Under the pieces are notes generated by a model, which saw nothing but the letters and a program-made list of their open reading frames with translations, ran no database searches and had not been told where the DNA came from. Below are positions 8,948 through 63,489 of a stretch of 64,000 bases of DNA, piece after piece. The stretch comes from a virus (taxonomy: Duplodnaviria > Heunggongvirae > Uroviricota > Caudoviricetes), in the IMG/VR virus record IMGVR_UViG_3300031555_004162, positions 14,478 through 78,477 of that record; one strand, written 5' to 3'. The stretch's first letter is position 1. Every line of letters begins with the position of its first letter. A program made the position numbers and the translations under genes.

Positions 8948-8962
8948 ATGTAATCTCCTTTA

Positions 8963-9412: not shown

Positions 9413-9413
9413 A

Positions 9414-9803
9414 TTAAATTTCCTCCTCTTCAATAGATAATATGACTTTACTATCACTATAATTGCCTGATAAACCTAATTGTTTAGATTGATTCAATGA
9501 TATCCATAAATCTTTATGAAAATAATCAAATAATTCATATAGGTCTTTTATTAAATAATGTTTAGATGTTCTAATAGAACACATTAATTCTTCTAATAAA
9601 TCTCTAACATACCATCTACAAGCGTTTTTATCTCCTTCAGCAGTTAAAACTATATTAATATGCTCATCATATTGACGATAATTATATGTAGTTTTTGCAT
9701 CTTTATATAATGATTTATTTACTCTAAATCTTTCTTGTATCTGATTTTCATCAAATGTAAAATCACCGTCTGTGTTAAAATAAGCTTTAAAACATAATTT
9801 CAT
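9414..9803 (-). CDS. hypothetical protein
   Basis: Start trimmed to MKLCFK with GAGAGG upstream. Confidence 0.45.
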   Translation of the reverse strand: MKLCFKAYFNTDGDFTFDENQIQERFRVNKSLYKDAKTTYNYRQYDEHINIVLTAEGDKNACRWYVRDLLEELMCSIRTSKHYLIKDLYELFDYFHKDLWISLNQSKQLGLSGNYSDSKVILSIEEEEI

Positions 9804-9851
9804 ATTTTTACCTCTCAATAATCTTAATAAATTCTTATTTTCAAAACATAC

Positions 9852-10238
9852 TTAAAAATTATCCTTTAATTCTTGTAAAACATCTGCTATATCATCAAAT
9901 TCAACTATTTTTACATAATCATCTTCATCAAAATCAAAATTATGAACATATGATTTTTCTTCCAATTTTGTTTCAATTTCTGAAAGTATTTCTAATTTTG
10001 CATTTTTTATTTCTTCGACAGTTACATCTAATGCTCTTTGCGAATTATATTTATTTGTTTCATAAAGAAATTGAATATTTTCTTTTAATTTATCATTTTC
10101 TTGTTTAAGTTGTTTAATAAAATCAAGCATGTTTTCTATTTTACCTTTTTCTTCATGCAAATGAATTATAGCTTTATCATGATTTTCAAGTATTGTTAAT
10201 AATGATTCTAAAAAAATAATAATTTGATTATAATTCAT
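9852..10238 (-). CDS. hypothetical coiled-coil protein
   Basis: 128-aa ORF, Glu/Lys/Leu-rich. Confidence 0.45.
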   Translation of the reverse strand: MNYNQIIIFLESLLTILENHDKAIIHLHEEKGKIENMLDFIKQLKQENDKLKENIQFLYETNKYNSQRALDVTVEEIKNAKLEILSEIETKLEEKSYVHNFDFDEDDYVKIVEFDDIADVLQELKDNF

Positions 10239-10282
10239 AATTATTCACCTCTTTAATCTTTTTATAAAAACTATTAATATGA

Positions 10283-10585
10283 TCATATTTTTCCAAATAC
10301 TACAAAACAATGAATCCCTTGTTCCCATGCTTTTTTCAACACCTGACTCATATTCATATCGTCAAATTTGCCAACATAAATTGATTTATAATTATCTTCA
10401 GAAAAAGTAGTTACTAATCTTTCTTTATTACCTCCCATATAATCTCCAGTAGGATAATAAAAATTAAATTCATCTTCATCAATTTCTTTTATAATATTTT
10501 CTACTTTAGATATATCTTCTTCTTTTTCTACAAAGATTCTTCCATATCCTTTTCTTGAAAATTTCATTTCCAAATTATCATACAT
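10283..10585 (-). CDS. hypothetical protein
   Basis: 100-aa ORF. Confidence 0.45.
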   Translation of the reverse strand: MYDNLEMKFSRKGYGRIFVEKEEDISKVENIIKEIDEDEFNFYYPTGDYMGGNKERLVTTFSEDNYKSIYVGKFDDMNMSQVLKKAWEQGIHCFVVFGKI

Positions 10586-10594
10586 TAATATACG

Positions 10595-10882
10595 CTACTC
10601 CTTTACATAAAAACTATTAATATAATCATTAAATATCCACTCATAACCTGTAAAACCAATATTTATTTCGTCCTTTTCATCTTTAAAGCGAATAACAGTT
10701 TCATCTGTACTAATATCTATAGATAATATGGTTGGTAACCAAGCTAATAGTAATATTATGTTATTTGTATAACGTATAACATTTTCTACGTCAATGCTTT
10801 TAATACAATTTTCATAAAATTGAGCAGTAGTTACAGCAACTGAATGTTCTTTATTAAATAACACCATGATTATCACCTCCAA
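10595..10882 (-). CDS. hypothetical protein
   Basis: 95-aa ORF. Confidence 0.4.
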   Translation of the reverse strand: MEVIIMVLFNKEHSVAVTTAQFYENCIKSIDVENVIRYTNNIILLLAWLPTILSIDISTDETVIRFKDEKDEINIGFTGYEWIFNDYINSFYVKE

Positions 10883-10896
10883 ATGAAATGTGTATT

Positions 10897-11178
10897 TTAT
10901 TTACGACCAACTGTAAATAGCCAATAGATTAGTAAACAAATTATCTTTATAATTTTATATATCCAATAGCAAATTGCATACGGAATAAATATTATATTTA
11001 GCAATATCGTTATAAAACTAATTCCGAACCAGTTTAAGTTTGTCCATTTATTATAATTTCTAATAGGATTAAATATTGATAAATCAAATCCTATAGAATT
11101 AAGTATTATTGTTTCAATACTCACAATAATACCAATTATAAGTGTAATGCTTTCAGCAATAGACAATATTATCACCAA
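10897..11178 (-). CDS. small membrane protein (2 TM)
   Basis: Two long hydrophobic segments. Confidence 0.45.
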   Translation of the reverse strand: MVIILSIAESITLIIGIIVSIETIILNSIGFDLSIFNPIRNYNKWTNLNWFGISFITILLNIIFIPYAICYWIYKIIKIICLLIYWLFTVGRK

Positions 11179-11202
11179 CTTTCACGATAAAATAAATGTA
11201 TT

Positions 11203-11436
11203 TTATTTACTTGATTTTCCCATTACAATTTCATCAAATAATTCTTGCATACGTTCTATGCTTGGTAAATGGCTTAAATTGTTGCAAACTTTCTCTTTCA
11301 TACAAGAATCCTCTTTTCCTTTTTCATATATACCTCTAAGAATTATTTCAATTTTCTCAGTAGCACGACCATCAGCTTTTGCAATATTTGTACATATATC
11401 AAAAATCTCTTTTGCTGTTTCTTTAAAGTCGATCAT
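11203..11436 (-). CDS. hypothetical small protein
   Basis: 77-aa ORF. Confidence 0.4.
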   Translation of the reverse strand: MIDFKETAKEIFDICTNIAKADGRATEKIEIILRGIYEKGKEDSCMKEKVCNNLSHLPSIERMQELFDEIVMGKSSK

Positions 11437-31601: not shown

Positions 31602-32855
31602 TCACTCCGATGACTTAAAATTATATACAGGCTTAATAAGCTTTATAATCTCTACTGTATCTTCAATATTATTTACAATATCATTAATATTCTTATATGC
31701 TTGAGGAGATTCATCGAGAGTACCTTCATTAATACATGTAGAATAAATACCTGTCATAGATTCTGCAAAATCAGAAAGACTAATAGTTTCTTTAGCTTTA
31801 CCTCTACTCATTAATCTACCAGCACCATGAGGAGCTGAATTATTGTAATCCTCGTTTCCTTTACCTTTACAAATAAGAACTCCATCTCTCATATTAATAG
31901 GAATAACTAACATTTGTCCTTCATAAGCAGCGACCGCACCTTTTCTAATTATGTTATCATCTCCAATATAATTATGAATCGTATCAAACCATTCGGTCTT
32001 AATATTATATTTCCCTTTTTGTTTAATTCTTAACTTTCCACTAGTAGATAATTGAACTTGACAATCATTGAAATAATTCTTTATAAGTTCTTCAGCGATT
32101 GTAAATCTATTCAGTGCAGCGTATTTCTGACAAATTCTCATATCATGTAAATATTTATCTTTATCTTCACCAATAAGATAAAGTAAATTTTTAGGAATCT
32201 TATCTAACTTTGACTTATAATTATTTATGGCTTCTTGAATATCAGATTCCCTTCCAGATGCTTTCATTTCTGCTATTAAGGAATTTATATTATTCTTATC
32301 TTCTTCCTTTCCAGCTTTATTTTGATAATACTTACATACGTCTAATCCTAAATGTCTAGAACCAGTATGAATCATAAGATATTTGTTTCCTTCAAAATCT
32401 TCATCAATTTCACAAAAATGATTCCCCGAACCAAGCGAGCCGATAGCTCTTAATACTTTATCATATTGATGTTTTACCACATCTTTATAACAATACATAT
32501 TTTCAAGTTCGTCAAATTTCTTTTTCTGTTTTGAATTAACTTCAAATCCGAAAGCAACATTTTCACGAAGTATTTTATCAAATCTCTTATAATCTATATC
32601 AACATTTCCTAATGGAATTGTTAGTACACCACAACCAATATCGACTCCAACTAAATTAGGAACTACTTTATCTCCTAAATTAGCTGTAAATCCTATAACA
32701 CATCCTGCTCCAGCGTGACAATCAGGTTGAATTCTTATTTTACAACCTTCAACAAAAGGCTGATTTAATAATTGTATTATCTGACATATACACTCATCTT
32801 CTATAACATCTGTAAATACTTTAGCAGTACCATATTTTCCTTTAAGTTCTAACAT
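31602..32855 (-). CDS. rtcB: RNA-splicing ligase RtcB
   Basis: Motifs GVDIGCGV, CHAGAGC, GSGNHFCEIDED and APHGAGR. Start trimmed to MLELKGKYGTAKVF behind GGAGGAATAAA. Confidence 0.8.
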   Translation of the reverse strand: MLELKGKYGTAKVFTDVIEDECICQIIQLLNQPFVEGCKIRIQPDCHAGAGCVIGFTANLGDKVVPNLVGVDIGCGVLTIPLGNVDIDYKRFDKILRENVAFGFEVNSKQKKKFDELENMYCYKDVVKHQYDKVLRAIGSLGSGNHFCEIDEDFEGNKYLMIHTGSRHLGLDVCKYYQNKAGKEEDKNNINSLIAEMKASGRESDIQEAINNYKSKLDKIPKNLLYLIGEDKDKYLHDMRICQKYAALNRFTIAEELIKNYFNDCQVQLSTSGKLRIKQKGKYNIKTEWFDTIHNYIGDDNIIRKGAVAAYEGQMLVIPINMRDGVLICKGKGNEDYNNSAPHGAGRLMSRGKAKETISLSDFAESMTGIYSTCINEGTLDESPQAYKNINDIVNNIEDTVEIIKLIKPVYNFKSSE

Positions 32856-32856
32856 T

Positions 32857-33099
32857 TTATTCCTCCACTTTTGTAGGTTTATAAAGAGTAGCATCTTCAA
32901 GTTCTTCTAAATCGTAAATAATGCTATTAAGTTTATCTATTACAAGTTCATTAACTTTAAATCCATTTTTATCAATAATACGTTTATCATAACTTATATG
33001 ATGAATAGCTTCATCTATTCGGCTATATGCTTCTTTTATTAACCCTTTATATTTTTTATTTTCATTTTCATCTCTTGGAGTTATTTCATAAGCTTTCAT
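32857..33099 (-). CDS. hypothetical protein
   Basis: Start trimmed to MKAYEITP, which has GAGAGGA upstream. Confidence 0.4.
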   Translation of the reverse strand: MKAYEITPRDENENKKYKGLIKEAYSRIDEAIHHISYDKRIIDKNGFKVNELVIDKLNSIIYDLEELEDATLYKPTKVEE

Positions 33100-37427: not shown

Positions 37428-38588
37428 TTAAATTAATTTATCTACATGTTGAAATTCATCTAATGTAAATTCATAAACTTTATTTTGAGTATGATTTTGA
37501 AATACAACATCTTTATCACTTATTATATTATAATCGTTTGTAAATGTGTTCATTATTTCTTTAGAAATCCATTCTATAAATTTAACCGGAACACCTTGAG
37601 CTAAACATTGAATTGTAGGAATTTTACATTCATTAGGATAAAATATAAAATCATCCGGATAGCCCATTATTCTAGCATATTCTCTTATATATAAATCTCT
37701 ATTTTCTACAGGATGAATAAATTGAGCTAAACTAGTCATTGAAGGAGCCACTCCGTCAAAATCAAGTCTATATGAAGATTTATCCCATAATCTTTCTCCA
37801 TTATTTTTCTTTTCAATAAAAGATTTTACTTGTTTTTTATGTTCATTCGGAATTTTTTCAATGTCTAGATTATTTAAATTGTTGTATAATCCACACATTA
37901 AAGATTCATTATGTTTTACATATCTATAAAATTCTTCCATATTTTTAATAGCTCTGTTATTATCAAATTCCATATTGGGTGTGTCAGGAGTTAAACCTTC
38001 AAATATTTCTTTTATTGTTGTTTTATTTTGTTTAACAAATTTTATTTCAGGTATTTTTTCATATTTATTTTTATTCCAACCTACAATCATAGTTCTTAAT
38101 CTTCTCATACTTACACCATGATTTCCAGCCATATCTCGTATGATTGTAAATTTATACTTTTCACCTAATATATTCACCATATCTTTTAAAATAGGTAATC
38201 CTAAAGTCACGACTGTTGGTGCATTTTCTATTAAAAATGTATCAGGATTTAAATGATTTATAATATCAAATACTTCATAAAATCTATTATTTACTTTATT
38301 ATCTACTTTTGCATTTTTATTTATAGAACTTAATCCAGAGCATGGATTATTTGAATATAATAAGTTATAATGTTTTTCTTTTAAAGTGTCTAAGAATGCA
38401 TTTTGAGACCACTCTGATGGTCTCTTAATATTTATATTAGGATAATTCTTACAAAAATGATACGCATTAGTATCTGTCATATCTTCAGTCATTTCTAAAA
38501 CAGTATCTATTTTCCATCCTGTATTTAAATGTCCTATGGTCTGACTCCCAGAAAATATATATGCACCTATAGCTGATAATTCATTCAT
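37428..38588 (-). CDS. DNA cytosine-5 methyltransferase-like protein
   Basis: Motif I-like YIFSGSQTIG, motif IV-like NPCSGLS (PCQ.FS), motif VI-like LIENAPTVV (ENV) and motif VIII-like SMRRLRT. Confidence 0.5.
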   Translation of the reverse strand: MNELSAIGAYIFSGSQTIGHLNTGWKIDTVLEMTEDMTDTNAYHFCKNYPNINIKRPSEWSQNAFLDTLKEKHYNLLYSNNPCSGLSSINKNAKVDNKVNNRFYEVFDIINHLNPDTFLIENAPTVVTLGLPILKDMVNILGEKYKFTIIRDMAGNHGVSMRRLRTMIVGWNKNKYEKIPEIKFVKQNKTTIKEIFEGLTPDTPNMEFDNNRAIKNMEEFYRYVKHNESLMCGLYNNLNNLDIEKIPNEHKKQVKSFIEKKNNGERLWDKSSYRLDFDGVAPSMTSLAQFIHPVENRDLYIREYARIMGYPDDFIFYPNECKIPTIQCLAQGVPVKFIEWISKEIMNTFTNDYNIISDKDVVFQNHTQNKVYEFTLDEFQHVDKLI

Positions 38589-43509: not shown

Positions 43510-44511
43510 TTACTTATTGAATTTAATAGCATTTTCATTAAATAAAGTATTATCACATTCCACAAAATAGTCAAATAGTGGTAACGCTAACTCTCTCATT
43601 TGAGGATGAGCAGCTTTGTCACATCTTAATTCAAAGAAATGTCCCCATTCATAATTATGAGCAGTCATTATAATTTCAGTTTTTAAACTGTTACCAAGTA
43701 CACTTCTAGCTTCTTGAGGAGTAGCTCCTAATTCTAATAACTCAAAGTATGCTTTTTCTGAAGCTTTTATTGCATCTCTCCAAACATGATACTTGTTTCT
43801 TTCAACACTTTGAAGTTCTGCTTCACCATCAAACATTAATGGGTCAATCACCGTGATATTATTATCAAATTTATCTTTAGAATAATTACAATATCTTGTA
43901 GATTCTTGAGCATATGAAGAATCCCTATGTCTAACGATTTCATGTGATACACCTCTATCACAAATAAATTTAATAGATTTCCATCCGTGCATCCATTGTT
44001 CTTCTGGAATTAATGTATTAATATCATCGATTTTAGTCCAATTATTTCTATGTACTTTTTTAAATTTATTACCAAATAATTCATCACAATCATAATCTAA
44101 GACTATTTGCTCACATAATTCAATTAAATGTTCTTTCATATAACTATTAGTCTTATAAGCTTCTAATAAATCTAAAAGAGACCTTGCGCTAAACGACAAT
44201 ATATATCTTAATTTTGTTTCAAAATTACCTTCATCATTACATGAAATAATTTCTGTCGTACTAGATGTTATATATTTTTCATTACTTAATATTTTAAAAA
44301 ATAAATTATTAGGAGTATTACATTGATATACAAATATAAAATGTTCTAACATCGCCCAATGTTTTTTATCATATAAATTTTTAATCATTTTTTTATGACT
44401 TTCATCAGTTATTAAATCTTCTGATTTATAACAAATTCTTGCAATTTTTTCAATATGTTTTTGAGGATTGTCATCATACATTTCTTTAAATGACGGCTTT
44501 ATAATTTTCAT
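43510..44511 (-). CDS. thyX: flavin-dependent thymidylate synthase ThyX
   Basis: ThyX signature RHR-x7-S present as RHRDSSYAQES; longer than typical ThyX (333 aa). Confidence 0.75.
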   Translation of the reverse strand: MKIIKPSFKEMYDDNPQKHIEKIARICYKSEDLITDESHKKMIKNLYDKKHWAMLEHFIFVYQCNTPNNLFFKILSNEKYITSSTTEIISCNDEGNFETKLRYILSFSARSLLDLLEAYKTNSYMKEHLIELCEQIVLDYDCDELFGNKFKKVHRNNWTKIDDINTLIPEEQWMHGWKSIKFICDRGVSHEIVRHRDSSYAQESTRYCNYSKDKFDNNITVIDPLMFDGEAELQSVERNKYHVWRDAIKASEKAYFELLELGATPQEARSVLGNSLKTEIIMTAHNYEWGHFFELRCDKAAHPQMRELALPLFDYFVECDNTLFNENAIKFNK

Positions 44512-47562: not shown

Positions 47563-50160
47563 TTAATTTATTTTATCGATTTTGTATATATAATTATGTT
47601 TAATTTCTTTATAAATATATTTCTCTATAATCGGATATATATATGTTTGAATATATAATAAATACAATAATTTGTAAAGTTTTTCATCACATGCATGTTC
47701 ACTATAATATCTAAATTTTGAATTTCTCATTTCATCAATAAATATATCTTTAATTTCATCATATCTTGTATGAGCAGTCTCAAAATTATTTATTACAAAA
47801 CATGTAGTTTCAATAAATGTTAAAAACCAATTTTCATTTTTAAAATCTTTATCATCAATATAAAATTCACCGTTATTCCACACATTGTGTTTTTTAGCAT
47901 ATGTCTTTATTTCATCTACAATATATCCTAATTTTTTAATATCTAAAGCTTCTCGTTCATTTATTTCTTCAATTGATGTATCACTATCAAATGATTCTTC
48001 ATAAAAAGATTTATCAACTTCATCATATGTTAATTCAGGATGAGTTACTAAATCACTTAATTTTGCAAATGTTCTTTTTGTAGATGGTCCACATACACAT
48101 CTGATATGAGTGGCATAATATAAGTCAATGTTTAATTTATTAGGCTTTATTTTATCATAATTGTCATTAAATAAATTAGATAGTTTTAAATACTCACCGG
48201 CCATTAAATATTTAGCGAACTGTTTAGCTCGTCTGTCAGTAAAATTTCTAACATTATTAATTATTTTCCAATGTGAAATAAGTTCTTTCCAATTATATTT
48301 AGAAATATCATCTACATACTGTGTAATTAATTGTTCTTCATAAAATTCTCTATCTGTTAAAAACTTATAAGCAATTTTAAAATATTTAATTAAATAACTA
48401 TAATCTAATGATGAATAATATCCAGTTGTGCTATCTCTTGAAGAACCAAATTGACCAATCTTTTTAGTATCTATAAAATACTTCATCCATATAGAATTCA
48501 TATATTCAAGATTAATAAATTCAGAAGTCTCTACTTCAAAATTAGCCTTATTTTTTCTTTCATTCCACCAATCGTCTTTTTTAACAGCTATAAAAATTCT
48601 ATCATTTTCAATAAGATTAATTTTATAAAGTCCAGAAGATACTTTACAATCTCTTGTAGTATTCAATTCTCCTCGAGCTCTATTGGCACTATATGTCTTA
48701 CCATTACTTTCTCGAATAGATTGAATAACTAAAATAGTATCTCCAACATGATTATATTCATTTATATTTTCTACAAAGTCGGCAAAATTTCCATATCTAT
48801 TATCATCTAACCAAGCATTTGCATAATTATGAATAATATATTTAGATGTAAATCTAATATCTACTTTTTCAGGTACAGTAAGTATTTCTCTATGTTCAAT
48901 TAGTCCTTGAACTACACTTAAAGCAAAATATCTCGAAACGGCTTCACCAATAGGAGTGTTAGGAGTTTTATCATTTTCATCTATTTGTTTTACTTCAGGT
49001 TTATATATTACATCTTCTATGAAAGATAATTTATGCTCATCCATATCAGTTTTGTCATTATCCCATTCTTCTTCAAGCCAACCCACATATAAATTTTCAC
49101 CATTTCTAACAACAAATCCAATTTTATTTCCATGCAACATATCGTATGACTCTAAAATATCATCATCACTGTTGTAAAAATAATTTTTATTTGTTTTAGA
49201 ACATCTAAAAAATGATATACATTTTAGTTGAGGACAAAACATTTCCATAACGGAATCCGAATATTTAAGTACTTCTTCTAAAAGTTTATAATTGCCTTCA
49301 ATATCATCAGTATATATACTCATGGTTTTAGCTAAATCTTCATTAAGATATAACATTTTTTGATTAAGCACTATAGGTGTTTCTTCTGATTCTTTTTTAC
49401 CTTCTCTTAATTGAATTAATTCTACAGTTTCACCTGCAAAACATCTAATAGAATAAATGTTTGTTTTCAACATAAAGATTTGCTGTTTTAATGCTTTTAA
49501 TTTTTCATTAAATTCAGCCATCTTTTCATCAAGTTCAGCTATCATTGCTTGTTTCTTAGCCTCAAGTAAATTCATCTTTTCATCTATTTCTTTTTGAATT
49601 TTGGCTAATTCATCAGTTTTAGCATTTTTTACATTTTCTATTTGTGATTTTAAATTATCCATTAATGTTGTTACTTTCTTTTGCTCACTTTTAACATCAT
49701 TAATAGATAAATTTGTAATTTCAGCCGGTAGTTTACTTTCGGTTGCAGGAGTATTTCCATTTATTAACATTCTCTTTACTTCATTTAATGAATACTGAGA
49801 ATAATCTGTTTCAGGTATAAATTCAACAAAATCTTCAAGAATAAATATAGATACTTTACCATAAGATACTACTACATATTTATCAATATGCATATCTACG
49901 TTCCATGTAAAATTATTTAATTTAATATATGCATCTACAGTTTTAGCATTATCATATCTTAATATATTAACTCCATCTGGTTTAGAATTACAATACTGTT
50001 TATTTAATATATTATCAATTGCTTTTGAAATAACTTGAGTATCTTTTTCATTCCATTTACCATAAAAATATTGCATATATTCATCGTTAAATTTTACAAC
50101 ATCAAAATTTTCAGATTGAATATACTCCAAATATTCATTAAGTTTGATATTAGATTTCAT
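47563..50160 (-). CDS. large hypothetical protein (865 aa) with central coiled coil
   Basis: Long uninterrupted ORF; residues ~150-250 are heptad-like K/E/L-rich; no catalytic motif recognised. Confidence 0.6.
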   Translation of the reverse strand: MKSNIKLNEYLEYIQSENFDVVKFNDEYMQYFYGKWNEKDTQVISKAIDNILNKQYCNSKPDGVNILRYDNAKTVDAYIKLNNFTWNVDMHIDKYVVVSYGKVSIFILEDFVEFIPETDYSQYSLNEVKRMLINGNTPATESKLPAEITNLSINDVKSEQKKVTTLMDNLKSQIENVKNAKTDELAKIQKEIDEKMNLLEAKKQAMIAELDEKMAEFNEKLKALKQQIFMLKTNIYSIRCFAGETVELIQLREGKKESEETPIVLNQKMLYLNEDLAKTMSIYTDDIEGNYKLLEEVLKYSDSVMEMFCPQLKCISFFRCSKTNKNYFYNSDDDILESYDMLHGNKIGFVVRNGENLYVGWLEEEWDNDKTDMDEHKLSFIEDVIYKPEVKQIDENDKTPNTPIGEAVSRYFALSVVQGLIEHREILTVPEKVDIRFTSKYIIHNYANAWLDDNRYGNFADFVENINEYNHVGDTILVIQSIRESNGKTYSANRARGELNTTRDCKVSSGLYKINLIENDRIFIAVKKDDWWNERKNKANFEVETSEFINLEYMNSIWMKYFIDTKKIGQFGSSRDSTTGYYSSLDYSYLIKYFKIAYKFLTDREFYEEQLITQYVDDISKYNWKELISHWKIINNVRNFTDRRAKQFAKYLMAGEYLKLSNLFNDNYDKIKPNKLNIDLYYATHIRCVCGPSTKRTFAKLSDLVTHPELTYDEVDKSFYEESFDSDTSIEEINEREALDIKKLGYIVDEIKTYAKKHNVWNNGEFYIDDKDFKNENWFLTFIETTCFVINNFETAHTRYDEIKDIFIDEMRNSKFRYYSEHACDEKLYKLLYLLYIQTYIYPIIEKYIYKEIKHNYIYKIDKIN

Positions 50161-50963: not shown

Positions 50964-51335
50964 TTAATCATTTCTCCATTCTTCACATTTGAATCCATTT
51001 AATCTTAACCAATTAGATACAAGATGTCTATGACAAAAATCTTCCGATTTTTCATAACAAATTAATGCAATATCATTTGATTGTTTGTCACATAATTGTT
51101 CTAATTCCATTACCACTTCTGAGGCATCCAGATTATCCAGAATTTCTTTTTTAAATTGTTCTATATAATAACCATTATCTTTATTTTTCTTCCATTCTAT
51201 AAAAAATTGATATTTAGGAGCCAATCTTTTATATTGTAATCCATCCCACCAATCTGGAGCTTTTCCACAAATAGATATTGGAATTATATTTTTAGGTAAC
51301 TTTTTTAAATTTCCAAAATAACTAGTATATATCAC
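50964..51335 (-). CDS. DUF488-like protein
   Basis: The ...ALICYEKSEDFCHRHLVSNWL segment resembles the DUF488 signature (C.E..p..CHR); GTG start with AAAGGAGA upstream. Confidence 0.4.
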   Translation of the reverse strand: MIYTSYFGNLKKLPKNIIPISICGKAPDWWDGLQYKRLAPKYQFFIEWKKNKDNGYYIEQFKKEILDNLDASEVVMELEQLCDKQSNDIALICYEKSEDFCHRHLVSNWLRLNGFKCEEWRND

Positions 51336-51349: not shown

Positions 51350-51520
51350 TTAACATATATTTAAGATAATATAACTAATTATAAATATCAATCCAGTTAG
51401 TATATATGCTCCAATTGGTAAAAATACTAAACGTCCAAAATATGAATAATCATTTTTAAATACAAATATAAAACTTATTCCTATAATTAATAATATAACA
51501 CCAAAAATTAAAATATCCAT
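51350..51520 (-). CDS. small 2-TM membrane protein (56 aa)
   Basis: Hydrophobic ORF immediately downstream of the flotillin gene; its stop overlaps the RBS of the next gene. Confidence 0.35.
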   Translation of the reverse strand: MDILIFGVILLIIGISFIFVFKNDYSYFGRLVFLPIGAYILTGLIFIISYIILNIC

Positions 51521-51538
51521 TTCAACCCAACTTATTTA

Positions 51539-53116
51539 TTATTCATCAATATTATCTTCAAGATATGGATTTACTACTTCAGGAAGAGATTCCTTTTCAT
51601 CATTATTAATAACTGTATTATTTTCAGATGTACTTAATACACCTAAACCTTTAAGAGGTTCTGCAACTGCTTTAACGGCCTCTGAAACTGAATCATTAAA
51701 TGATTTACCATTAAGAGCATTATTAGAAACATCTAAATGTTTCATAAGAGTAGGAATTTGTGCAAGAGTATCAAATAATACATTGTTGCCCATACCTGTT
51801 CCTGAACCACCAATGTTTACAAATTCTGCATTCTTTCCAACTTCAGCCATTACAGTAGCCATATTTGTTGCAATCTGTACTCTTGCTTCATTTTCAATCT
51901 TAATTTTTTCAATTTCAAAATTAACCTTACCATTTCCTGCTCTTGCTTCAGCTAATGCTTTTTCACCTTCAGCTTCGGCAAGTTTTTTCGCTTTAATTGC
52001 TTCAGCTTCTGCAATACCTTGTTTAGTAGTAATTTCAGCTTGAGTTTCACCTTCAAGTTTTATTTTATTTGCATTAGCTTGAGCTTCTCTTTCAATTGCA
52101 TTTGCTTTACCAATAGCTTCTTGCTCTAATACTTTAGCTCTTGCTTCTGCATTAATAGTGGAAACGTTTGCTGTTTCTTGAGCTTTAATTTCCGCTTGAA
52201 CTTTTTCAGCTTCAGCTCTAGTTTTAATAACTTCCTTTTCTTTAATTGCGGCTAGATTAGCTTGTTCTTGTCTGACAACTTCAACTTTACCTTCTTGTGC
52301 AGCAACTTCTTGCATACGAATAGTTTTCTGAAGTTCACCTGCAATTGCAGCGTCTGCATTGGCTTTATCTGTTTCCGCTTTGAATTCGGCAATTTTTAAA
52401 TTATTATTTTTAGTTTTTTCAGCAATTTCAAGTTCTGTATCAAGTTCACTTTGTTTAGCTATTTTTTCTGATTCTGCATTTTGTTGTCTGATTTGCTGAT
52501 CAGCCATAGCTCTTACTTGTTCAGCTTCTTTTCTCTTTTCTTCTCTATCTTTAGCAGCAATATCTTCATAATAACCATTGTTATCTGTAACTTCACCTAT
52601 ATTAAGTGAGATTAATTTAAGACCCATATCTTTAAGTTCATCTGCAACAGCTTCTTGCACCGTTTGTTTAAACTGTTCTTTTTTAGTAGCTACTTCTTCT
52701 GGAGTCATAGTTGCAACAGTGCCAAGTACACATCCAGCCAATGTTCTTTTAACATCTTCTTTAATACCATCACTTTTACGTTCTTTAAAAGATACTATTG
52801 CTTTAGCAAGAACTTCAGTATCAGATGAATCAGGTCTAATTTGAGCAGTCCAATTAATAACGATAGGTACACCTGTCTTTGTCATAATTTCATCTTTATC
52901 AGCTGTAACAGTTAACATACATAAATCGAATGTATCTGCTCTTCTAAAAATAGGAATTACAAGTCCACCTCCAGAAACTTTATAGATAGGCTCTTTTCCG
53001 CCTGTTATTATTAATACTTTATCTACAGGCACTGTTTTATATATTTTACAAAGTAAAATAATAAAAGCCACAATAAATAAAATTATTACCCCACCGATTA
53101 TTAAATATTTTTCCAT
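51539..53116 (-). CDS. flotillin-like SPFH/band-7 protein
   Basis: N-terminal TM helix, an SPFH-like core (PIVINWTAQIRPD...), then long Ala/Glu-rich heptad repeats (AEAEA, EAEQ) typical of FloT/YqiK flotillins. Confidence 0.65.
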   Translation of the reverse strand: MEKYLIIGGVIILFIVAFIILLCKIYKTVPVDKVLIITGGKEPIYKVSGGGLVIPIFRRADTFDLCMLTVTADKDEIMTKTGVPIVINWTAQIRPDSSDTEVLAKAIVSFKERKSDGIKEDVKRTLAGCVLGTVATMTPEEVATKKEQFKQTVQEAVADELKDMGLKLISLNIGEVTDNNGYYEDIAAKDREEKRKEAEQVRAMADQQIRQQNAESEKIAKQSELDTELEIAEKTKNNNLKIAEFKAETDKANADAAIAGELQKTIRMQEVAAQEGKVEVVRQEQANLAAIKEKEVIKTRAEAEKVQAEIKAQETANVSTINAEARAKVLEQEAIGKANAIEREAQANANKIKLEGETQAEITTKQGIAEAEAIKAKKLAEAEGEKALAEARAGNGKVNFEIEKIKIENEARVQIATNMATVMAEVGKNAEFVNIGGSGTGMGNNVLFDTLAQIPTLMKHLDVSNNALNGKSFNDSVSEAVKAVAEPLKGLGVLSTSENNTVINNDEKESLPEVVNPYLEDNIDE

Positions 53117-55427: not shown

Positions 55428-55516
55428 TGGTGCAAGAGAAGGGATTCGAACCCTCAATTCCTCACGGACGACGGATTTTAAGTCCGTTGCATATACCAAA
55501 ATTCTGCCACTCTTGC
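55428..55516 (-). tRNA. tRNA-Leu (anticodon UAA), type II with long variable arm
   Basis: Acceptor GCAAGAG/CTCTTGC, anticodon loop CTTAAAA, T-loop GTTCGAATC, 3' ACCA encoded. Confidence 0.85.
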
Positions 55517-55689: not shown

Positions 55690-55763
55690 TGGCTGGGGTA
55701 AATGGAATCGAACCAATACTCTAAGAATCAAAATCTTATGTACTACCGTTATACTATACCCCA
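55690..55763 (-). tRNA. tRNA-Gln (anticodon UUG)
   Basis: Acceptor TGGGGTA/TACCCCA, U8, D-arm GTAT/GTAC, anticodon stem TAAGA/TCTTA with loop TTTTGAT, T-loop TTCGATT, 3' GCCA; 74 nt. Confidence 0.85.
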
Positions 55764-56522: not shown

Positions 56523-57065
56523 TTATTTACCTGAATTTCCAAATCCAGTATCTCCTCGATTGGTATTCATAATTTCTTCTTTTGTCAAACCAGTTTCTTT
56601 CATATAATCTTCTAGAGATACCCATTCAATGCTGTAAGTTTTATAAATATCTAAACTGCACGGTCTTTCTCCTTTTTCAATGGTAATATCTTTGTCTGTC
56701 ACATTGTACAAAAGAGCATTGATACAACCACGATAATTCAAATCTACATGCGCAGGTCCCACTAATAAACCTTCAAGCCATCTACCACCTCTTGTTCTAC
56801 ATGCAATACCAAAACCTTCAGGAATAATAGTTCCAATACCAAGTGATACTTTAGCTGAACCATGAGCTGGAATCGTTACTGTTTCATGAGCATATGCATC
56901 ATATCCAATATCACCTTCTTTATTTCTCTTAGGAAGCATTAATTCACCATCTCCTGAAAAATCAAGATATGGTACCTGTATTGTATTTTCAGTACAATTC
57001 ATTGTTTCCATCATATGTTCCAATGTTGTTATCCTATTTTCTAATTGTGCTAATACTTTATTCAT
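56523..57065 (-). CDS. dut: dUTPase (trimeric dUTPase family) with ~45-aa N-terminal extension
   Basis: GDIGYDAYA (motif 1), RTRGG (motif 3 RSG-like), GPAHVDLNYRG (motif 4), C-terminal RGDTGFGNSG (motif 5). Confidence 0.75.
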   Translation of the reverse strand: MNKVLAQLENRITTLEHMMETMNCTENTIQVPYLDFSGDGELMLPKRNKEGDIGYDAYAHETVTIPAHGSAKVSLGIGTIIPEGFGIACRTRGGRWLEGLLVGPAHVDLNYRGCINALLYNVTDKDITIEKGERPCSLDIYKTYSIEWVSLEDYMKETGLTKEEIMNTNRGDTGFGNSGK

Positions 57066-57184: not shown

Positions 57185-58465
57185 TTACACGTTTATATAA
57201 TTATTTTTAGCATCTTCTAATAATTGACCATCTCTCCAAATATTAAAACAATGATTTTCAGTGAGATCAATAATATTCTTATTTTTAAATTGTTCTCTTA
57301 CTTTTCTCCAATTTATACCTACATTATCTAAACCTCTTTGATGAATCCATTTAATATATTCTATATGACCAAAATTATTTTTCATTTCCTGTTGTTGCTG
57401 AGTAAATCTTTCTTGAATACTATCAAAATTCATAGTACCCATTGCAACTGAACTGTATGTCATCCATCTAAATTCACAATTTATAAGACCTGCTTCTAAT
57501 CCTCTAATAAGTAAATCTAAATCATCATGTCCATTGCCTATAAGAGTTCTATAATTTAAACCAGACTCTTTAAGTCTCTTTAAATTTAAACAAACAGTTC
57601 CTGTAGGAAGTCCTGATAATAATCTCATTGATTTTTCTACATTTATAAAATCAGGAACCCAACTAAATCCTTGCATCATACCTGTGGTAAACATCACATT
57701 ATATTTTTTAGCAACATATTCCATACCAATCTGCCACATTGCCATAGTTTTTCCAAAGTTTTGTGTAGTAACTCCTTGAGCTTTTGGTTCACCATTTGCT
57801 CTAAACCAAGGAACCGTATGACAAAAATTAGTAATATCATCGTCACACATAAATATAAAATCATATTTCTTAGAAAAAGCATTTACAATTTGTTCTCTAG
57901 TTTTTCCAATGTCATCTATTAATTCATCAGGAAATGCTTTTATATGTATATAATCATTATATTTTATATACTCTGATGCTTCATACAGTTCTTTTTGAGA
58001 TTGTCTCACAATAATATAAATTGGATATTCATAACCAGGAACAACTATGTCTTTAATCCATTTTACAAAACCACAATTAGGTCTATTATATGATGGAATT
58101 ACTATAGGGAATAATCTATCCTTTACAATATCATACGCTGCTTCATAAAGTTTGTTACTCCAACAATCAACTGCTAATAGCTCTTCAGTTGTAACTTTCG
58201 GAGCTTTAACTCTTGGAGTTTTTTCATATTTCATTTTTTTACCTTCAATATATTGCTCTAAAGATATATTTTTTTTATTTAATTCATCTTTTAATTTTAT
58301 TACCTCCTCCCAACATTTTTTACACTTTTCATCGACACAATCATTACATTCTTTATCACAATTTATAACCGCTTCAACATATGAACTCATGTTTGAAATA
58401 TTTTTAGGACATTTAAATTCATTTGCTAAAACATTTAATATTGTGTCAGTTTTTAATTTTGCCAT
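57185..58465 (-). CDS. GT-A fold (family 2-like) glycosyltransferase with Cys-rich N-terminal domain
   Basis: FPIVIPSYNRPN matches the GT2 xxIPxYN start; FMCDDDI fits a DxD motif; the N-terminus has 8 Cys (CDKECNDCVDEKCKKC). Confidence 0.5.
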   Translation of the reverse strand: MAKLKTDTILNVLANEFKCPKNISNMSSYVEAVINCDKECNDCVDEKCKKCWEEVIKLKDELNKKNISLEQYIEGKKMKYEKTPRVKAPKVTTEELLAVDCWSNKLYEAAYDIVKDRLFPIVIPSYNRPNCGFVKWIKDIVVPGYEYPIYIIVRQSQKELYEASEYIKYNDYIHIKAFPDELIDDIGKTREQIVNAFSKKYDFIFMCDDDITNFCHTVPWFRANGEPKAQGVTTQNFGKTMAMWQIGMEYVAKKYNVMFTTGMMQGFSWVPDFINVEKSMRLLSGLPTGTVCLNLKRLKESGLNYRTLIGNGHDDLDLLIRGLEAGLINCEFRWMTYSSVAMGTMNFDSIQERFTQQQQEMKNNFGHIEYIKWIHQRGLDNVGINWRKVREQFKNKNIIDLTENHCFNIWRDGQLLEDAKNNYINV

Positions 58466-58481: not shown

Positions 58482-59204
58482 TTAATATCCCATTTTGTCT
58501 GTTAATGTTTCATCATTTATTATCCAATCATTAACTTCTTTTATAATAAAATTATCATTAGGCCTTGCAAACACCACATATTTAATACCTGCATTAATGA
58601 TTATTTTTTTACACATTTGACACGATTCTAAATTCTCTATAATATTTCCATCAATATCACTTCCATATAAATATAAAGTAGAATCAATCATTTTTTCTCT
58701 TTCAGCATTTATAATTGCATTCATTTCACTATGAACACTTCTACATAATTCATATCTTTCTCCTCTTGGAATATTCATTTGTTCTCTTCTACAATATCCT
58801 AAATCGATACAATTCATAGTTAATCTGGGAGAGCCATTATATCCTGTAGAAATTATAGTGTCATTTTTAACAATAACAGAACCATATTTTTTCCTTAAAC
58901 AGGTAGATCTAGTAGATACTTCTTTTGCAATATTTAAATAATATACATGCTTAGAAGGTCTTTCACATGTTTTATCATTTAATTTGTTGTATTGTTCACT
59001 GCATTTATTGCAATAATGATGTTTTTCATATACATTCCATCCAGATTCATTATATGCACCAACTAAAAGTTTAAAATTATTTATACCTTTAAAAATCATC
59101 TTTTTATCACATATATAACATTTAAAATTTATGCAATTTTCATTTTTATATTTACTATCTAAATATTTTTTATTCAAACTATTTATTAAATCTATATTTT
59201 TCAT
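58482..59204 (-). CDS. dCMP deaminase (cytidine/deoxycytidylate deaminase fold)
   Basis: Zinc-binding HSEMNAI (H[AC]E) and SCQMC (PCxxC) motifs; N-terminal Cys-rich extension. Confidence 0.75.
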   Translation of the reverse strand: MKNIDLINSLNKKYLDSKYKNENCINFKCYICDKKMIFKGINNFKLLVGAYNESGWNVYEKHHYCNKCSEQYNKLNDKTCERPSKHVYYLNIAKEVSTRSTCLRKKYGSVIVKNDTIISTGYNGSPRLTMNCIDLGYCRREQMNIPRGERYELCRSVHSEMNAIINAEREKMIDSTLYLYGSDIDGNIIENLESCQMCKKIIINAGIKYVVFARPNDNFIIKEVNDWIINDETLTDKMGY

Positions 59205-62187: not shown

Positions 62188-63489
62188 TTAAAAATCAATA
62201 TTTCTATCTTTAAGTGATTTTTTTATTAAATATTTTCTATTAGATAATTGTTTAGGTGTTATATTTAATGTTCCACATATAGTATCAACATCATACGTAT
62301 TACAATCGTTTAGAAATTGTTTTAATCCTTCTATGTCATCATATTTAATAGTTGGCTGCCAGTTCTTTGGTCTTTTACCTTTTTTCTTATTTTTATCAGA
62401 GACTAATAGTTTATCATTATTCATTTCATTTTTAGTGTCTACCTCTGGTTTATTTTTTTCGTTATCTATTAAATCTTTATAATTAATACCTTTTCTTTTT
62501 AAAAATGATTGTATTGCACTTTTTTTATCATAAAGTTTTTGAATATTTTCTAAGTTGTATTTTTTCATACAAGATGCTTTACTCATACTATAATAATCTT
62601 TTATAAATTGTGTTGAAAATTCAATTGTATATCTTACCGTGTTTGCTTTTCTATTATCTTTTTTCTCAATATCTTCTTCTTTGATTGCTTCATTTGAAGA
62701 TTTAATTGATTGTTCAAATATATTTTTCGCAGGAGTTAATGTATTTCCAATAGATTTGTATAAATATATTAAAGAATTTAAAATATCATCTAATTTTTTA
62801 GAATTAGCAACATATAAATCTTTTACTATTTTTAAATCCTCATGAAATGAAACGGTTGACTTATTTGTTTCATCTATCATTGATTTTAAGTTGGTTATAT
62901 TATCATTTGTGGTTATAAACTTATTTTGTATGTCTGTAAAAGAATTAATATAATTAACAGTGTCTCTACTATTCACATTGTTAACGTGTTCTTCATATTT
63001 AGTAAATTTATCTTCAATATATTTATCAAACTTAGCAGTTTTTTGTTTGATAATTAAATTTAAAGTAGATTCCAGTTTATTTAAAAAATCAAGAGAAGAT
63101 AATTCCCGTTCTGATATATTTAAATCAAATTCTACAGCAAGGGCTATATCTATTTTTTTCATAACTAATTCAGATAATCTACCTATATATTCACCTAAAT
63201 CATGTTTATTAATACACCTACATTGTTCTAATAAAATTACTTGCGGTCTACCTTCAAATTCATAATAAACTTGATATGGTCCTACTGAAGATTTAGGTCT
63301 GGTGGTTATAGGAGCTATAGTTACTACATCACCTTTTTTATTTCCTATATCATTTGATATAATAACTACTGGTCTTTTTTTACCTTCAATTCTATTAGGT
63401 TGTATATCTCCTAAATCATAATAATAAACATTTCCTCTACTAAATACGTCCAACATTAATCTTTCTCCTTTGTATAACAATTTATCCAT
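62188..63489 (-). CDS. 433-aa protein with an N-terminal MazF/PemK-like domain fused to an uncharacterised C-terminal region
   Basis: Residues ~15-125 (GNVYYYDLGDIQPNRIEGKKRPVVIISNDIGNKKGDVVTIAPITTRPKSS..PYQV......RPQVILLEQCRCINKHDL...IGRLSELVMKKI) align with the Kid/PemK and MazF toxin core. Confidence 0.55.
   Translation of the reverse strand: MDKLLYKGERLMLDVFSRGNVYYYDLGDIQPNRIEGKKRPVVIISNDIGNKKGDVVTIAPITTRPKSSVGPYQVYYEFEGRPQVILLEQCRCINKHDLGEYIGRLSELVMKKIDIALAVEFDLNISERELSSLDFLNKLESTLNLIIKQKTAKFDKYIEDKFTKYEEHVNNVNSRDTVNYINSFTDIQNKFITTNDNITNLKSMIDETNKSTVSFHEDLKIVKDLYVANSKKLDDILNSLIYLYKSIGNTLTPAKNIFEQSIKSSNEAIKEEDIEKKDNRKANTVRYTIEFSTQFIKDYYSMSKASCMKKYNLENIQKLYDKKSAIQSFLKRKGINYKDLIDNEKNKPEVDTKNEMNNDKLLVSDKNKKKGKRPKNWQPTIKYDDIEGLKQFLNDCNTYDVDTICGTLNITPKQLSNRKYLIKKSLKDRNIDF

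What the first reader, a model, noticed from the sequence alone, without database searches (positions are those of the whole stretch)
51350..53116. Flotillin-like SPFH protein with a small membrane partner in a phage genome
ORF 51539..53116 has the bacterial flotillin (FloT/YqiK) build: an N-terminal TM anchor, an SPFH/band-7 core, then ~250 residues of Ala/Glu-rich heptad repeats. A 56-aa two-helix membrane protein immediately downstream could be an NfeD-like partner, since flotillin and NfeD genes are usually an operon in bacteria. Flotillins organise membrane microdomains that scaffold secretion, signalling and cell-wall machinery. A phage-borne copy could remodel host membrane domains for replication, adsorption exclusion or lysis timing. 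It is uncommon cargo for a phage.
Basis: partly seen in the sequence, partly recalled or inferred. Interest (0 to 1): 0.55.

Follow-up and report, generated by a model that had tools for sequence, protein, structure and literature searches.

The report
Host-derived flotillin gene in a phage
A large uncultured phage of gut or rumen Firmicutes carries an intact copy of its hosts' flotillin, a membrane-scaffold protein; it is real and kept by selection, but the small neighbouring membrane protein is not the usual flotillin partner (NfeD), and phage SPFH/flotillin genes have been annotated before.

Summary
ORF 51539..53116 (minus strand, 525 aa) is a flotillin. It has an N-terminal hydrophobic anchor, an SPFH/Band_7 domain (Pfam E 8e-23) and about 240 residues of Ala/Glu-rich long helices. 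Its best sequence and fold matches in the PDB are flotillin-1/2. The window is the early/replication region of a large AT-rich Bacillota phage.

The gene belongs to a sizeable metagenomic family (55-83% identity). Members occur in several lineages of 50-320 kb phage contigs. The family nests within the chromosomal flotillins of Lachnospiraceae, Ruminococcus and other Clostridia (about 60-68% identity). In phages it evolves under purifying selection (dN/dS about 0.2) and shows a recombinational swap of the SPFH core.

The 56-aa ORF is a real two-helix membrane protein, but it is not NfeD-like. It has no room for the NfeD soluble domain and gives no Pfam NfeD hit. It occurs only in the window's own lineage, and in the closest relatives a terminator separates it from the flotillin gene.

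Function is inferred. The most likely role is a host-derived membrane scaffold that supplements host flotillin during infection. Phage SPFH/flotillin genes are already annotated elsewhere without a known function, so this is a new member of a known kind, of moderate interest.

The parts
51539..53116 (-). Flotillin (FloT/YqiK-type SPFH) gene, 525 aa including stop codon
   Evidence: ORF. Pfam Band_7 E 8.4e-23. NCBIfam FloT full-length alignment at 190 bits. PDB flotillin-1/2 E 1e-23. Foldseek flotillin complex E 2e-13. dN/dS 0.18-0.30 against phage orthologs.
53128..53133 (-). Shine-Dalgarno sequence (AAGGAG) of the flotillin gene, about 11 nt before the ATG; only 18 nt separate the gene from the upstream 54-aa ORF
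   Evidence: Sequence read.
53045..53110 (-). N-terminal hydrophobic membrane anchor (residues ~3-24, with Gly8-Gly9); TM helix or re-entrant hairpin
   Evidence: Hydropathy. AF2 helix 2-25. B. subtilis YuaG has the equivalent segment at aa 5-24 with a central Gly and was shown to be a hairpin (PMC4312047).
52499..53035 (-). SPFH/Band_7 domain (residues 28-206); residues 71-200 form the recombinationally exchanged core
   Evidence: Pfam. pLDDT 80-88 over residues ~70-180. Superposes on the mouse flotillin-2 SPFH domain 1win at rmsd 1.9 A over 122 columns. Mosaic pattern.
51782..52498 (-). Ala/Glu/Lys-rich helical 'flotillin domain' (residues 207-445), two long helices
   Evidence: Composition. 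AF2 helices 182-274 and 289-429. Aligned to the flotillin-1 wall helices up to residue 380.
51542..51781 (-). C-terminal region (residues 446-525): conserved segment ~446-490, then a variable acidic tail
   Evidence: Invariant columns up to G490 in alignment A2. Low pLDDT. Tail identity 35-82% among homologs.
51350..51520 (-). 56-aa two-helix membrane protein, adjacent lineage-specific gene; partner status unproven; not NfeD
   Evidence: Conserved position and topology in L024, L025, L026 and L027 at 27-48% identity. dN/dS 0.38-0.87. No Pfam family. Absent from other flotillin loci and from 80 DUF488 loci.

Best explanation
The gene is a host-derived flotillin kept as an accessory ('moron'-like) gene by large phages of gut and rumen Clostridia.

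Shown: it has the full flotillin architecture, it is nested among chromosomal Clostridia flotillins, it is carried by several phage lineages, and it is under purifying selection.

Inferred: the protein is made during infection and inserts its N-terminal hydrophobic segment into the cytoplasmic face of the host membrane. Like other SPFH proteins, it oligomerises through its SPFH and EA-rich helices into a large dome or cage over a membrane patch. With 64-70% overall identity to host flotillins, and 75-85% in the helical region, it may co-assemble with them.

The likely benefit to the phage is to supplement or replace host flotillin once host gene expression declines. This would keep the membrane fluid, organised and stress-tolerant, and perhaps modulate flotillin clients such as FtsH, secretion or cell-wall synthesis, through a long productive infection.

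The adjacent 56-aa hairpin protein is a lineage-specific small membrane protein whose link to the flotillin is unproven.
For: Identity as a flotillin:
-. Flotillin-1/2 are the only PDB sequences matched at E <= 0.01 and are the top Foldseek hits over ~440 columns. Other SPFH cages (prohibitin, HflK/C, stomatin, erlin) score lower.

Host origin:
- Chromosomal orthologs at 64-68% identity sit in a Lachnospiraceae MAG between deoC/deoB-type genes and lepA, hemN and hrcA-grpE.
- Orthologs of about 60% identity occur in Ruminococcus and other Clostridia MAGs.
- An NJ tree places the phage copies inside this radiation.

Retention by phages:
- Phage contexts: L001 (208 kb contig), L024, L025, L027, L028 (163 kb), L030 (197 kb) and IMG/VR contigs L031-L040 of 54-320 kb.
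- dN/dS is 0.18-0.30.
- About 130 invariant columns are shared by phage and bacterial copies, so no sign of decay or loss of a module.

Accessory-gene layout:
- Terminator hairpins lie directly after the gene in L001, L024, L025 and L027, with terminator-like hairpins also in L030 and L034.
- L028 has a consensus TTGACA-17-TAATAT promoter upstream.
- The gene is placed at tRNA arrays and next to NAMPT/NadE auxiliary genes in other lineages.
- In the window it sits among early, nucleotide-metabolism and replication genes.

Mechanistic precedent from the literature:
- B. subtilis flotillins maintain membrane fluidity needed for MreB-directed wall synthesis, and purified flotillin fluidises liposomes (PMC7360373).
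- YuaG oligomerises into large clusters (PMC4312047).
- Flotillin overproduction alters division and differentiation (PMC3892786, title and abstract).
Against: - There is no experimental or expression evidence for any phage flotillin. The papers found only annotate phage SPFH genes and call their role unclear.
- The benefit to the phage is pure inference. Nothing in the sequence separates 'supplementing' host flotillin from interfering with it.
- The window-type SPFH core (residues 71-200) is only 58-67% identical to every other lineage sampled, which could mean altered client or assembly specificity.
- The AF2 model is a monomer of moderate confidence (mean pLDDT 66), so cage assembly was not tested.
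- The tree is a simple NJ tree without support values, and genomic context is known for only a minority of its leaves.
Confidence: 0.45

Rival explanations
1. Counter-defence or lysis-timing device. The phage flotillin cage stabilises or shields the membrane against premature permeabilisation, whether by the phage's own holin before the programmed time or by host abortive-infection effectors that form pores or depolarise the membrane. It would act like an envelope-stress protein.
For: SPFH cages enclose membrane patches and membrane proteins; see the HflK/C-FtsH, QmcA-YbbJ and flotillin structures among the Foldseek hits. One bacterial ortholog lies next to the stress-associated TelA gene (L013). 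Lysin-type genes lie within ~3-4 kb in L028 (Amidase_2-SH3_3) and L001 (Glucosaminidase). From my own knowledge, not tested here: B. subtilis floT and floA belong to the sigma-W envelope-stress regulon.
Against: No holin or endolysin was found adjacent to the gene in the window. There is no PADLOC or anti-defence family hit. The lysin proximity in two loci is loose and not conserved.
Confidence: 0.2
2. Superinfection exclusion or interference with host flotillin. The phage copy co-assembles with host flotillin and poisons or re-targets the microdomains, blocking DNA entry by competing phages or shutting down host membrane signalling, secretion or sporulation.
For: High identity to host flotillins in the oligomerising helical region (75-85%) makes mixed oligomers plausible. 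The divergent, recombinationally swapped SPFH core would fit an altered-function subunit. One published hypothesis links a phage SPFH protein to adsorption or DNA entry (PMC13239085).
Against: All family-invariant residues are retained and selection is purifying along the whole length, as expected for a normally functioning flotillin. There is no direct evidence.
Confidence: 0.15
3. Virion or assembly-associated structural protein. The long helices would serve a structural role in the particle or as an assembly scaffold at the membrane.
For: SPFH-domain proteins were detected by mass spectrometry in particle preparations of Erwinia jumbo phages (PMC6034870, one 95%-confidence peptide from a preparation the paper calls crude; PMC7760394).
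Against: The gene lies in the early, replication and nucleotide-metabolism region, not a structural module, in the window and in every related locus. It carries an N-terminal membrane anchor. It is a close ortholog of chromosomal bacterial flotillins. The Erwinia proteins are unrelated SPFH proteins, not found as homologs.
Confidence: 0.04
4. Passenger gene. It was recently picked up from a host and has no role in the phage life cycle.
For: It is clearly of host origin. Its GC content (0.33) is above the phage average of 0.25.
Against: The gene is present in many diverged phage lineages with synonymous divergence dS 0.6-1.2 yet dN/dS ~0.2, so it has been maintained by selection within phages for a long time. 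GC 0.33 is far from the 0.44 of the Lachnospiraceae copy and is largely explained by Ala/Glu codons.
Confidence: 0.05

Closest known systems
Bacterial flotillin FloT/YuaG (Bacillus subtilis) and YqiK-type flotillins
   Same: Same architecture: an N-terminal hydrophobic anchor with central glycines, a PHB/SPFH domain and an EA-rich helical flotillin domain, at a similar length (~510-530 aa). The NCBIfam FloT model aligns over its whole length. The architecture definition is from PMC4312047.
   Different: It scores 190 bits against the 700-bit equivalog cut-off, so it is not an ortholog-grade match to B. subtilis FloT. It has no NfeD neighbour. It is encoded by a phage.
Chromosomal flotillins of Lachnospiraceae, Ruminococcus and other Clostridia (e.g. 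P0079, loci L003-L021)
   Same: 60-68% identical over the full length, with the same domain order and ~130 shared invariant positions. They too are stand-alone, with no NfeD.
   Different: Different genomic context (housekeeping neighbours against phage early genes) and GC content (0.44 against 0.33). The window-type SPFH core 71-200 is unusually divergent, 58-67%.
Eukaryotic flotillin-1/flotillin-2 complex (PDB 9bq2, 9l3g)
   Same: Best solved-structure match by sequence (E 1e-23, residues 33-380) and by fold (E 2e-13). The SPFH domain superposes on flotillin-2 (1win) at 1.9 A.
   Different: About 23-25% identity. The eukaryotic proteins use acylation and a hairpin instead of a strongly hydrophobic N-terminal helix. 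Hetero-oligomeric cage formation was not tested for the phage protein.
SPFH-domain proteins annotated in cultured phages (Vibrio phage KIT04 'flotillin family protein'; RaK2-like and Erwinia jumbo phages; Schitoviridae GIB1; Xanthomonas phage X1)
   Same: Phage-encoded SPFH or flotillin genes of unknown function, mostly in large genomes.
   Different: Only 23% identity to the KIT04 protein, and the others were not detected as homologs. They belong to phages of Gram-negative hosts. PHROG 200 matches only weakly (E 1.7e-5). No earlier description of this Clostridia-phage family was found in the searched library.
SPFH-NfeD pairs (E. coli QmcA-YbbJ, PDB 8z5g; B. subtilis YuaF-FloT)
   Same: An SPFH gene followed by a small membrane-protein gene.
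   Different: The 56-aa protein lacks the NfeD soluble domain and is not conserved with the flotillin outside one lineage. In close relatives a terminator separates it from the flotillin gene.

Membership tests
SPFH / Band 7 superfamily | SPFH (PHB) domain detectable by profile and by fold | tested here: met
   Pfam PF01145 E 8.4e-23, 81.8 bits against cut-off 23.6, covering profile positions 2-175 of 176. The model superposes on the flotillin-2 SPFH domain 1win at rmsd 1.9 A, TM 0.76.
Flotillin subfamily (FloT/YqiK/Flot1-2) | N-terminal hydrophobic membrane tether directly before the SPFH domain | tested here: met
   Single hydrophobic segment at residues 3-24 with Gly8-Gly9. AF2 helix 2-25. 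Compare YuaG aa 5-24 (PMC4312047). Whether it is a TM helix or a hairpin cannot be decided here.
Flotillin subfamily (FloT/YqiK/Flot1-2) | Long EA-rich helical 'flotillin domain' after the SPFH domain, and closer to flotillins than to stomatin, prohibitin or HflK/C | tested here: met
   Ala 19% and Glu 16% over residues 207-445. Helices 182-274 and 289-429. Only flotillin-1/2 are found in the PDB at E <= 0.01, and they are the top four Foldseek hits over 425-453 columns. Canonical heptad periodicity was not detected.
Flotillin subfamily (FloT/YqiK/Flot1-2) | Equivalog-level match to B. subtilis FloT (NCBIfam NF058507 cut-off) | tested here: not met
   190 bits against a cut-off of 700. It is a flotillin-family member but not a FloT equivalog.
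Flotillin subfamily (FloT/YqiK/Flot1-2) | Assembly into large oligomeric membrane-associated cages or foci; detergent-resistant membrane association | not testable with these tools
   Only a monomer model could be made. This needs microscopy, BN-PAGE or cryo-EM.
NfeD family (for the 56-aa ORF) | C-terminal soluble NfeD (OB-fold-like) domain, Pfam PF01957 | tested here: not met
   56 aa are fully taken up by two hydrophobic helices and a ~9-residue loop. No NfeD hit for any of five family members, even at E <= 10.
NfeD family (for the 56-aa ORF) | Conserved operon pairing with an SPFH gene | tested here: not met
   Present only in the window's own syntenic lineage (L024-L027). Absent from L001, L028-L040. 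A terminator hairpin separates the two genes in L024, L025 and L027. Bacterial orthologs have unrelated neighbours.
Class II holin or pinholin (for the 56-aa ORF) | Two TMDs plus a charged C-terminal tail and linkage to an endolysin gene | tested here: not met
   Two TMDs are present, but the protein ends in hydrophobic ...YIILNIC with no charged tail. The neighbours are the flotillin and DUF488-N3a genes, with no lysin among the neighbouring ORFs scanned.
Phage 'moron' / host-derived accessory gene | Host-like gene inserted as an autonomous unit (own promoter and/or terminator) at variable genome positions | tested here: inconclusive
   Terminators follow the gene in L001, L024, L025 and L027, with terminator-like hairpins also in L030 and L034. 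A consensus promoter precedes it in L028. Neighbourhoods differ between lineages. In the window itself the gene is packed 18 nt from both neighbours, and no terminator was found.

The most novel reading that the evidence does not exclude
Large phages of gut and rumen Clostridia have repeatedly captured host flotillin and exchange modules with it. They use it to build a phage-specified membrane microdomain, possibly by co-assembling with host flotillin through the conserved helical wall while presenting a swapped SPFH core. This domain would control a specific step of infection, such as resistance to membrane-targeting abortive-infection effectors, exclusion of competing phages, or holin timing. 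It would be the first viral use of an SPFH cage as an infection device in bacteria, with the 56-aa hairpin protein as a lineage-specific client or adaptor.
Probability: 0.15. Interest if true: 0.7.

Novelty: new member of a known kind. Interest (0 to 1): 0.4.

Why it matters
Bacterial flotillins are still debated: they may be protein scaffolds or membrane-fluidity regulators. A virus that keeps an intact, selected copy provides a natural perturbation experiment. It shows that flotillin dosage or type matters enough during infection to be worth carrying. The family described here is widespread in large uncultured phages of gut and rumen Clostridia, is host-derived, and has a recombining SPFH core. 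That gives a concrete set of genes to test for effects on membrane state, lysis timing or phage-phage and phage-defence interactions. For annotation, it also warns against reading any small membrane ORF next to an SPFH gene as NfeD.

Tried and rejected
- Megablast of 13 kb around the gene against cultured phages found nothing, so there is no close cultured relative.
- A look-up of the window's exact protein in the contig index returned nothing, although its cluster lists a 114.6-kb JGI contig.
- The single-sequence scan of IMG/VR found nothing. The alignment-based scan succeeded.
- PADLOC gave no defence-family hit for the flotillin or the small ORF. PHROGs gave only a weak hit to phrog_200 'lipoprotein'.
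- NfeD hypothesis for the small ORF: rejected.
- Holin hypothesis for the small ORF: rejected, because there is no charged tail and no lysin neighbour.
- Hypothesis that the small ORF is a partner of the downstream DUF488-N3a gene (constant 13-16-nt spacing): rejected. None of 80 other DUF488-N3a loci has a small two-TM ORF upstream, and none has a flotillin.
- Heptad periodicity: not detected with a global Fourier test. This is inconclusive for local coiled-coil segments.
- Positive selection as the cause of the divergent SPFH core: rejected in favour of recombination, because dS rises together with dN in that segment (L024 against L025: dS 1.11 against ~0.4 in the flanks).
- The first attempt at a tree timed out and was redone with a faster distance method. 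That tree has no bootstrap support.
Full report
OBSERVATION

The 525-aa product of 51539..53116 has these features:
- One strongly hydrophobic N-terminal segment, residues ~3-24, containing Gly8-Gly9.
- A Pfam Band_7/SPFH domain at residues 28-206 (E 8.4e-23, 81.8 bits against a gathering score of 23.6).
- A stretch at 207-445 that is 19% Ala, 16% Glu and 11% Lys.
- End-to-end alignment to the NCBIfam FloT model (residues 7-445 on model positions 2-443 of 477). The score is 190 bits, far below the 700-bit equivalog cut-off.
- A canonical AAGGAG ribosome-binding site before the ATG.

The AlphaFold2 model was built on a 38-sequence alignment and is of moderate quality (mean pLDDT 66; SPFH core 80-88). 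It shows the SPFH alpha/beta domain followed by two very long helices, 182-274 and 289-429.

By sequence, the only PDB chains matched at E <= 0.01 are flotillin-1 and flotillin-2 (E 1e-23 over residues 33-380). By fold, the top four Foldseek hits are the flotillin-1/2 cage chains (E 2e-13 to 1e-11, 425-453 columns). The SPFH domain superposes on mouse flotillin-2 (1win) at 1.9 A. Prohibitin, HflK/C, stomatin and erlin follow with lower scores.

A global Fourier test gave no 3.5-residue periodicity above shuffled controls. The region is therefore best described as the EA-rich helical 'flotillin domain' (definition in PMC4312047), not as demonstrated heptads.

IS IT A PHAGE?

The window is 25% GC with a uniform strand bias. 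Essentially all of its genes are on one strand and many are short. It carries two tRNAs.

It encodes an RtcB ligase, a C5 DNA methylase, a RecA/UvsX-like recombinase, ThyX, dUTPase, dCMP deaminase, a TAGT-like glycosyltransferase, SbcC/SbcD-like nucleases, a PemK/MazF-domain protein and a YopX protein.

No cultured phage is close at the DNA level. The SbcC-like and recombinase proteins have their best, distant (26-40%) matches in large Bacillus and Streptococcus myoviruses and in Clostridium phages.

The window is therefore the early/replication region of an uncultured large phage of a Bacillota host. The protein cluster records a 114.6-kb contig.

RELATIVES AND ORIGIN

The flotillin has 822 database homologs at E <= 0.001 among the 8,000 candidates scored. 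The best 120 are 55-83% identical, and all are from metagenomes.

Phage contexts fetched:
- Closest relatives, syntenic with the window: P0003 (80%), P0004 (79%) and P0008 (75%), with TAGT, dCMP deaminase, dUTPase, YopX, flotillin, a small ORF, DUF488-N3a and an 861-aa ORF.
- Phage-like contigs with different neighbourhoods: P0020 (72%, 208 kb), P0029 (70%, 163 kb, with NAMPT, NAD synthase, RNA ligase, endolysin and DNA ligase) and P0104 (60%, 197 kb).
- Ten further IMG/VR viral contigs of 54-320 kb at 52-61% identity.

Bacterial contexts fetched:
- P0079 (64% by BLASTP; 68% in my codon alignment) sits in a Lachnospiraceae MAG between deoC/deoB-type genes and lepA, hemN and hrcA-grpE.
- About 60%-identical copies occur in Ruminococcus and other Clostridia MAGs from rumen and gut.

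A neighbour-joining tree places the phage copies inside this Clostridia radiation, next to the Lachnospiraceae type. It has no support values, and context is known for only some leaves. The simplest reading is capture from a host, followed by spread and maintenance among phages.

SELECTION AND MOSAICISM

Among phage copies, dN/dS is 0.18-0.30 at dS 0.6-1.2. About 130 alignment columns are invariant across phage and bacterial sequences. The phage gene is therefore a functional, constrained flotillin and not a decaying passenger.

One segment behaves differently:
- The window and P0002-P0004 share one type of SPFH core (residues 71-200, 90-93% identical).
- P0006 and P0008, which belong to the same syntenic lineage, are only 65% identical to the window in that segment.
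- In the same segment they are 95-100% identical to P0024, P0029 (a different phage lineage) and P0108.
- Between L024 and L025 the flanks are 85-92% nucleotide-identical (dS ~0.4). The core is 70% identical, with both dS (1.11) and dN (0.27) raised.

That is the signature of a recombinational swap, not of positive selection alone.

GENE LAYOUT

In the window the flotillin gene is packed 18 nt from both neighbours, and no terminator was found.

In the relatives:
- L001, L024, L025 and L027 have a clear GC-rich hairpin plus T-run directly after the stop codon. L030 and L034 carry terminator-like hairpins too.
- L028 has a TTGACA-17-nt-TAATAT promoter with a TG extension upstream.
- In L028, L031-L033, L036, L039 and L040 the gene is followed within ~80-150 nt by a tRNA array.
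- In L028, L032 and L040 it is directly preceded by NAMPT and NAD synthase. L033 and L039 have one of the two close by, judged from ORF sequence.

The flotillin thus behaves as an autonomous accessory gene that sits in the 'auxiliary' parts of these genomes, never in a structural module.

THE 56-AA NEIGHBOUR

ORF 51350..51520 encodes two hydrophobic helices (1-21 and 30-54) joined by a short polar loop. It has no charged tail.

An ORF of 56-59 aa with the same topology occupies the same position in L024, L025, L026 and L027. These are only 27-48% identical to the window's copy, and dN/dS is 0.38-0.87. It is probably a real but weakly constrained small membrane protein.

It is not NfeD-like and is not a demonstrated partner:
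- It has no room for the soluble NfeD domain, and no Pfam NfeD hit appears for any member even at E <= 10.
- In the relatives the terminator lies between the flotillin gene and the small ORF, which has its own ribosome-binding site.
- It is absent from all other phage flotillin loci examined. A profile of the family finds nothing among 507 small ORFs within 3 kb of the flotillin gene in those loci, and nothing among the small membrane proteins next to bacterial orthologs.
- It is not a companion of the downstream DUF488-N3a gene either. None of 80 other viral DUF488-N3a loci has such an ORF, and none has a flotillin.

The sampled bacterial orthologs have no NfeD neighbour. Their neighbours include a weak below-threshold SdpI-like match, DUF1294, TelA and unrelated genes. 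The premise that flotillin and NfeD form an operon therefore does not apply to this subfamily. A variety of small membrane proteins do lie just downstream of several bacterial copies, so a loose 'flotillin plus small membrane client' theme cannot be excluded.

MECHANISM

Shown: the gene is a complete, selected, host-derived flotillin carried by several lineages of large phages.

Inferred from family knowledge: the protein anchors to the cytoplasmic face of the membrane and oligomerises into a large SPFH assembly over a membrane patch. Precedents are the flotillin, HflK/C and QmcA-YbbJ cages and YuaG oligomerisation (PMC4312047). Because its helical region is 75-85% identical to host-type proteins, co-assembly with host flotillin is plausible.

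Best guess (about 0.45): the phage supplements or replaces host flotillin to keep the membrane fluid, organised and stress-tolerant through a long infection. Flotillins maintain membrane fluidity needed for MreB-directed wall synthesis and fluidise liposomes in vitro (PMC7360373).

Rivals:
- Membrane protection against premature holin action or abortive-infection effectors (0.2).
- Interference with host microdomains or superinfection exclusion (0.15).
- A passenger gene (0.05, disfavoured by dN/dS).
- A virion component (0.04, disfavoured by gene position and the membrane anchor).

None of these is tested.

COMPARISON WITH WHAT IS KNOWN

SPFH or flotillin genes have already been annotated in phages:
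- Vibrio phage KIT04, 'flotillin family protein'.
- RaK2-like and Erwinia jumbo phages (PMC7760394, PMC6034870).
- A Schitoviridae phage (PMC13239085).
- Xanthomonas phage X1 (PMC13384950).

Where these papers comment on the gene's role, they call it poorly understood or unclear (PMC7760394, PMC13239085). FloT-like proteins are rare among cultured phages: 8 of 50,697 records, all at or below 33% identity. I found no functional study, and no description of this Clostridia-phage family, in the searched library.

VERDICT

This is a new member of a known kind. Interest is moderate at 0.4. The gene is intact, selected, widespread and mosaic, which makes it a useful handle on flotillin biology, but its presence in a phage is neither unprecedented nor mechanistically resolved.

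Noticed in passing
window 50964-51335 (-); loci L041-L120: The gene after the small ORF encodes a DUF488-N3a protein (Pfam E 5.8e-16; phrog_2450 E 3.5e-30; weak PADLOC hits to PDC-M19A and PDC-M45C). The IMG/VR scan confirmed 136 relatives, mostly on large contigs. They have very conserved motifs (MIYTSYF, CGKAPxW, FCHRHLV) and variable neighbours.
   Followed up: partly
L024 13154-13545; L025 12720-13104: The closest related phages carry a tmRNA gene (tags ANKYSTPVRMAA and ANRFSCPVAA) just downstream of the flotillin, small ORF and DUF488 block. ARAGORN finds no tmRNA in the window.
   Followed up: no
L028 9545-12165; L031, L032, L033, L036, L039, L040 around 7500-11300: In other phage lineages the flotillin gene sits at the head of a tRNA array (4-10 tRNAs), often after NAMPT and NAD synthase genes. 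In L031, L032, L039 and L040 a GC-rich hairpin without a U-tract lies just before the first tRNA. This suggests co-transcription, with tRNA processing defining the mRNA 3' end.
   Followed up: partly
window 52517-52906 (residues 71-200 of the flotillin); L024 and L025: The SPFH core has been exchanged by recombination between phage flotillin lineages: 65-70% identity in the core against 85-100% in the flanks or with other lineages. The window-type core is only 58-67% identical to every other lineage sampled.
   Followed up: yes
window 37428-38588, 43510-44511, 56523-57065, 57185-58465, 58482-59204 (all -): A set of genes suggests modified DNA: C5 cytosine methylase, ThyX, dUTPase, a TET-associated-glycosyltransferase-like protein (TAGT) and dCMP deaminase. 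No TET/JBP gene was seen among the ORFs scanned.
   Followed up: no
window 62188-63489 (-): A 433-aa protein has an N-terminal PemK/MazF toxin domain (Pfam E 3.2e-20, residues 18-119). The remaining ~300 residues match nothing.
   Followed up: no
window 47563-50160 (-); L024 14742-17327: An 865-aa ORF has no significant family hit in Pfam, PHROGs, NCBIfam or PADLOC. A similar-sized ORF (861 aa) sits at the same relative position in L024. It includes a probable coiled-coil segment around residues 150-240.
   Followed up: no
L029 6798-7931; L036 4095-5507: Reverse-transcriptase genes lie directly upstream of the flotillin gene in two unrelated loci. In L036 the RT is fused to a YAcAr/SLOG domain.
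   Followed up: no
L031 3572-5678: Five tandem paralogous small ORFs all begin M(K)xRxDFVTNSSSSSF, just upstream of the flotillin gene of an IMG/VR contig.
   Followed up: no
L013 5525-6724; L003 6171-6509; L016 3879-4214; L009, L012 and L019 ~5530-5920: Bacterial orthologs of the flotillin are often followed by unrelated small membrane or stress proteins: TelA, a 112-aa protein with a weak below-threshold SdpI-like match, DUF1294, and a conserved 60-67-aa single-TM protein ending ...DYEPWEYKDxRK. None is NfeD.
   Followed up: partly
window 31602-32900 (-), 55428-55516 and 55690-55763 (-): An RtcB RNA ligase (PHROG 'tRNA splicing ligase', E 3e-123) occurs together with phage tRNA-Leu(UAA) and tRNA-Gln(UUG). 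This is consistent with tRNA repair or supply against host anticodon nucleases.
   Followed up: no
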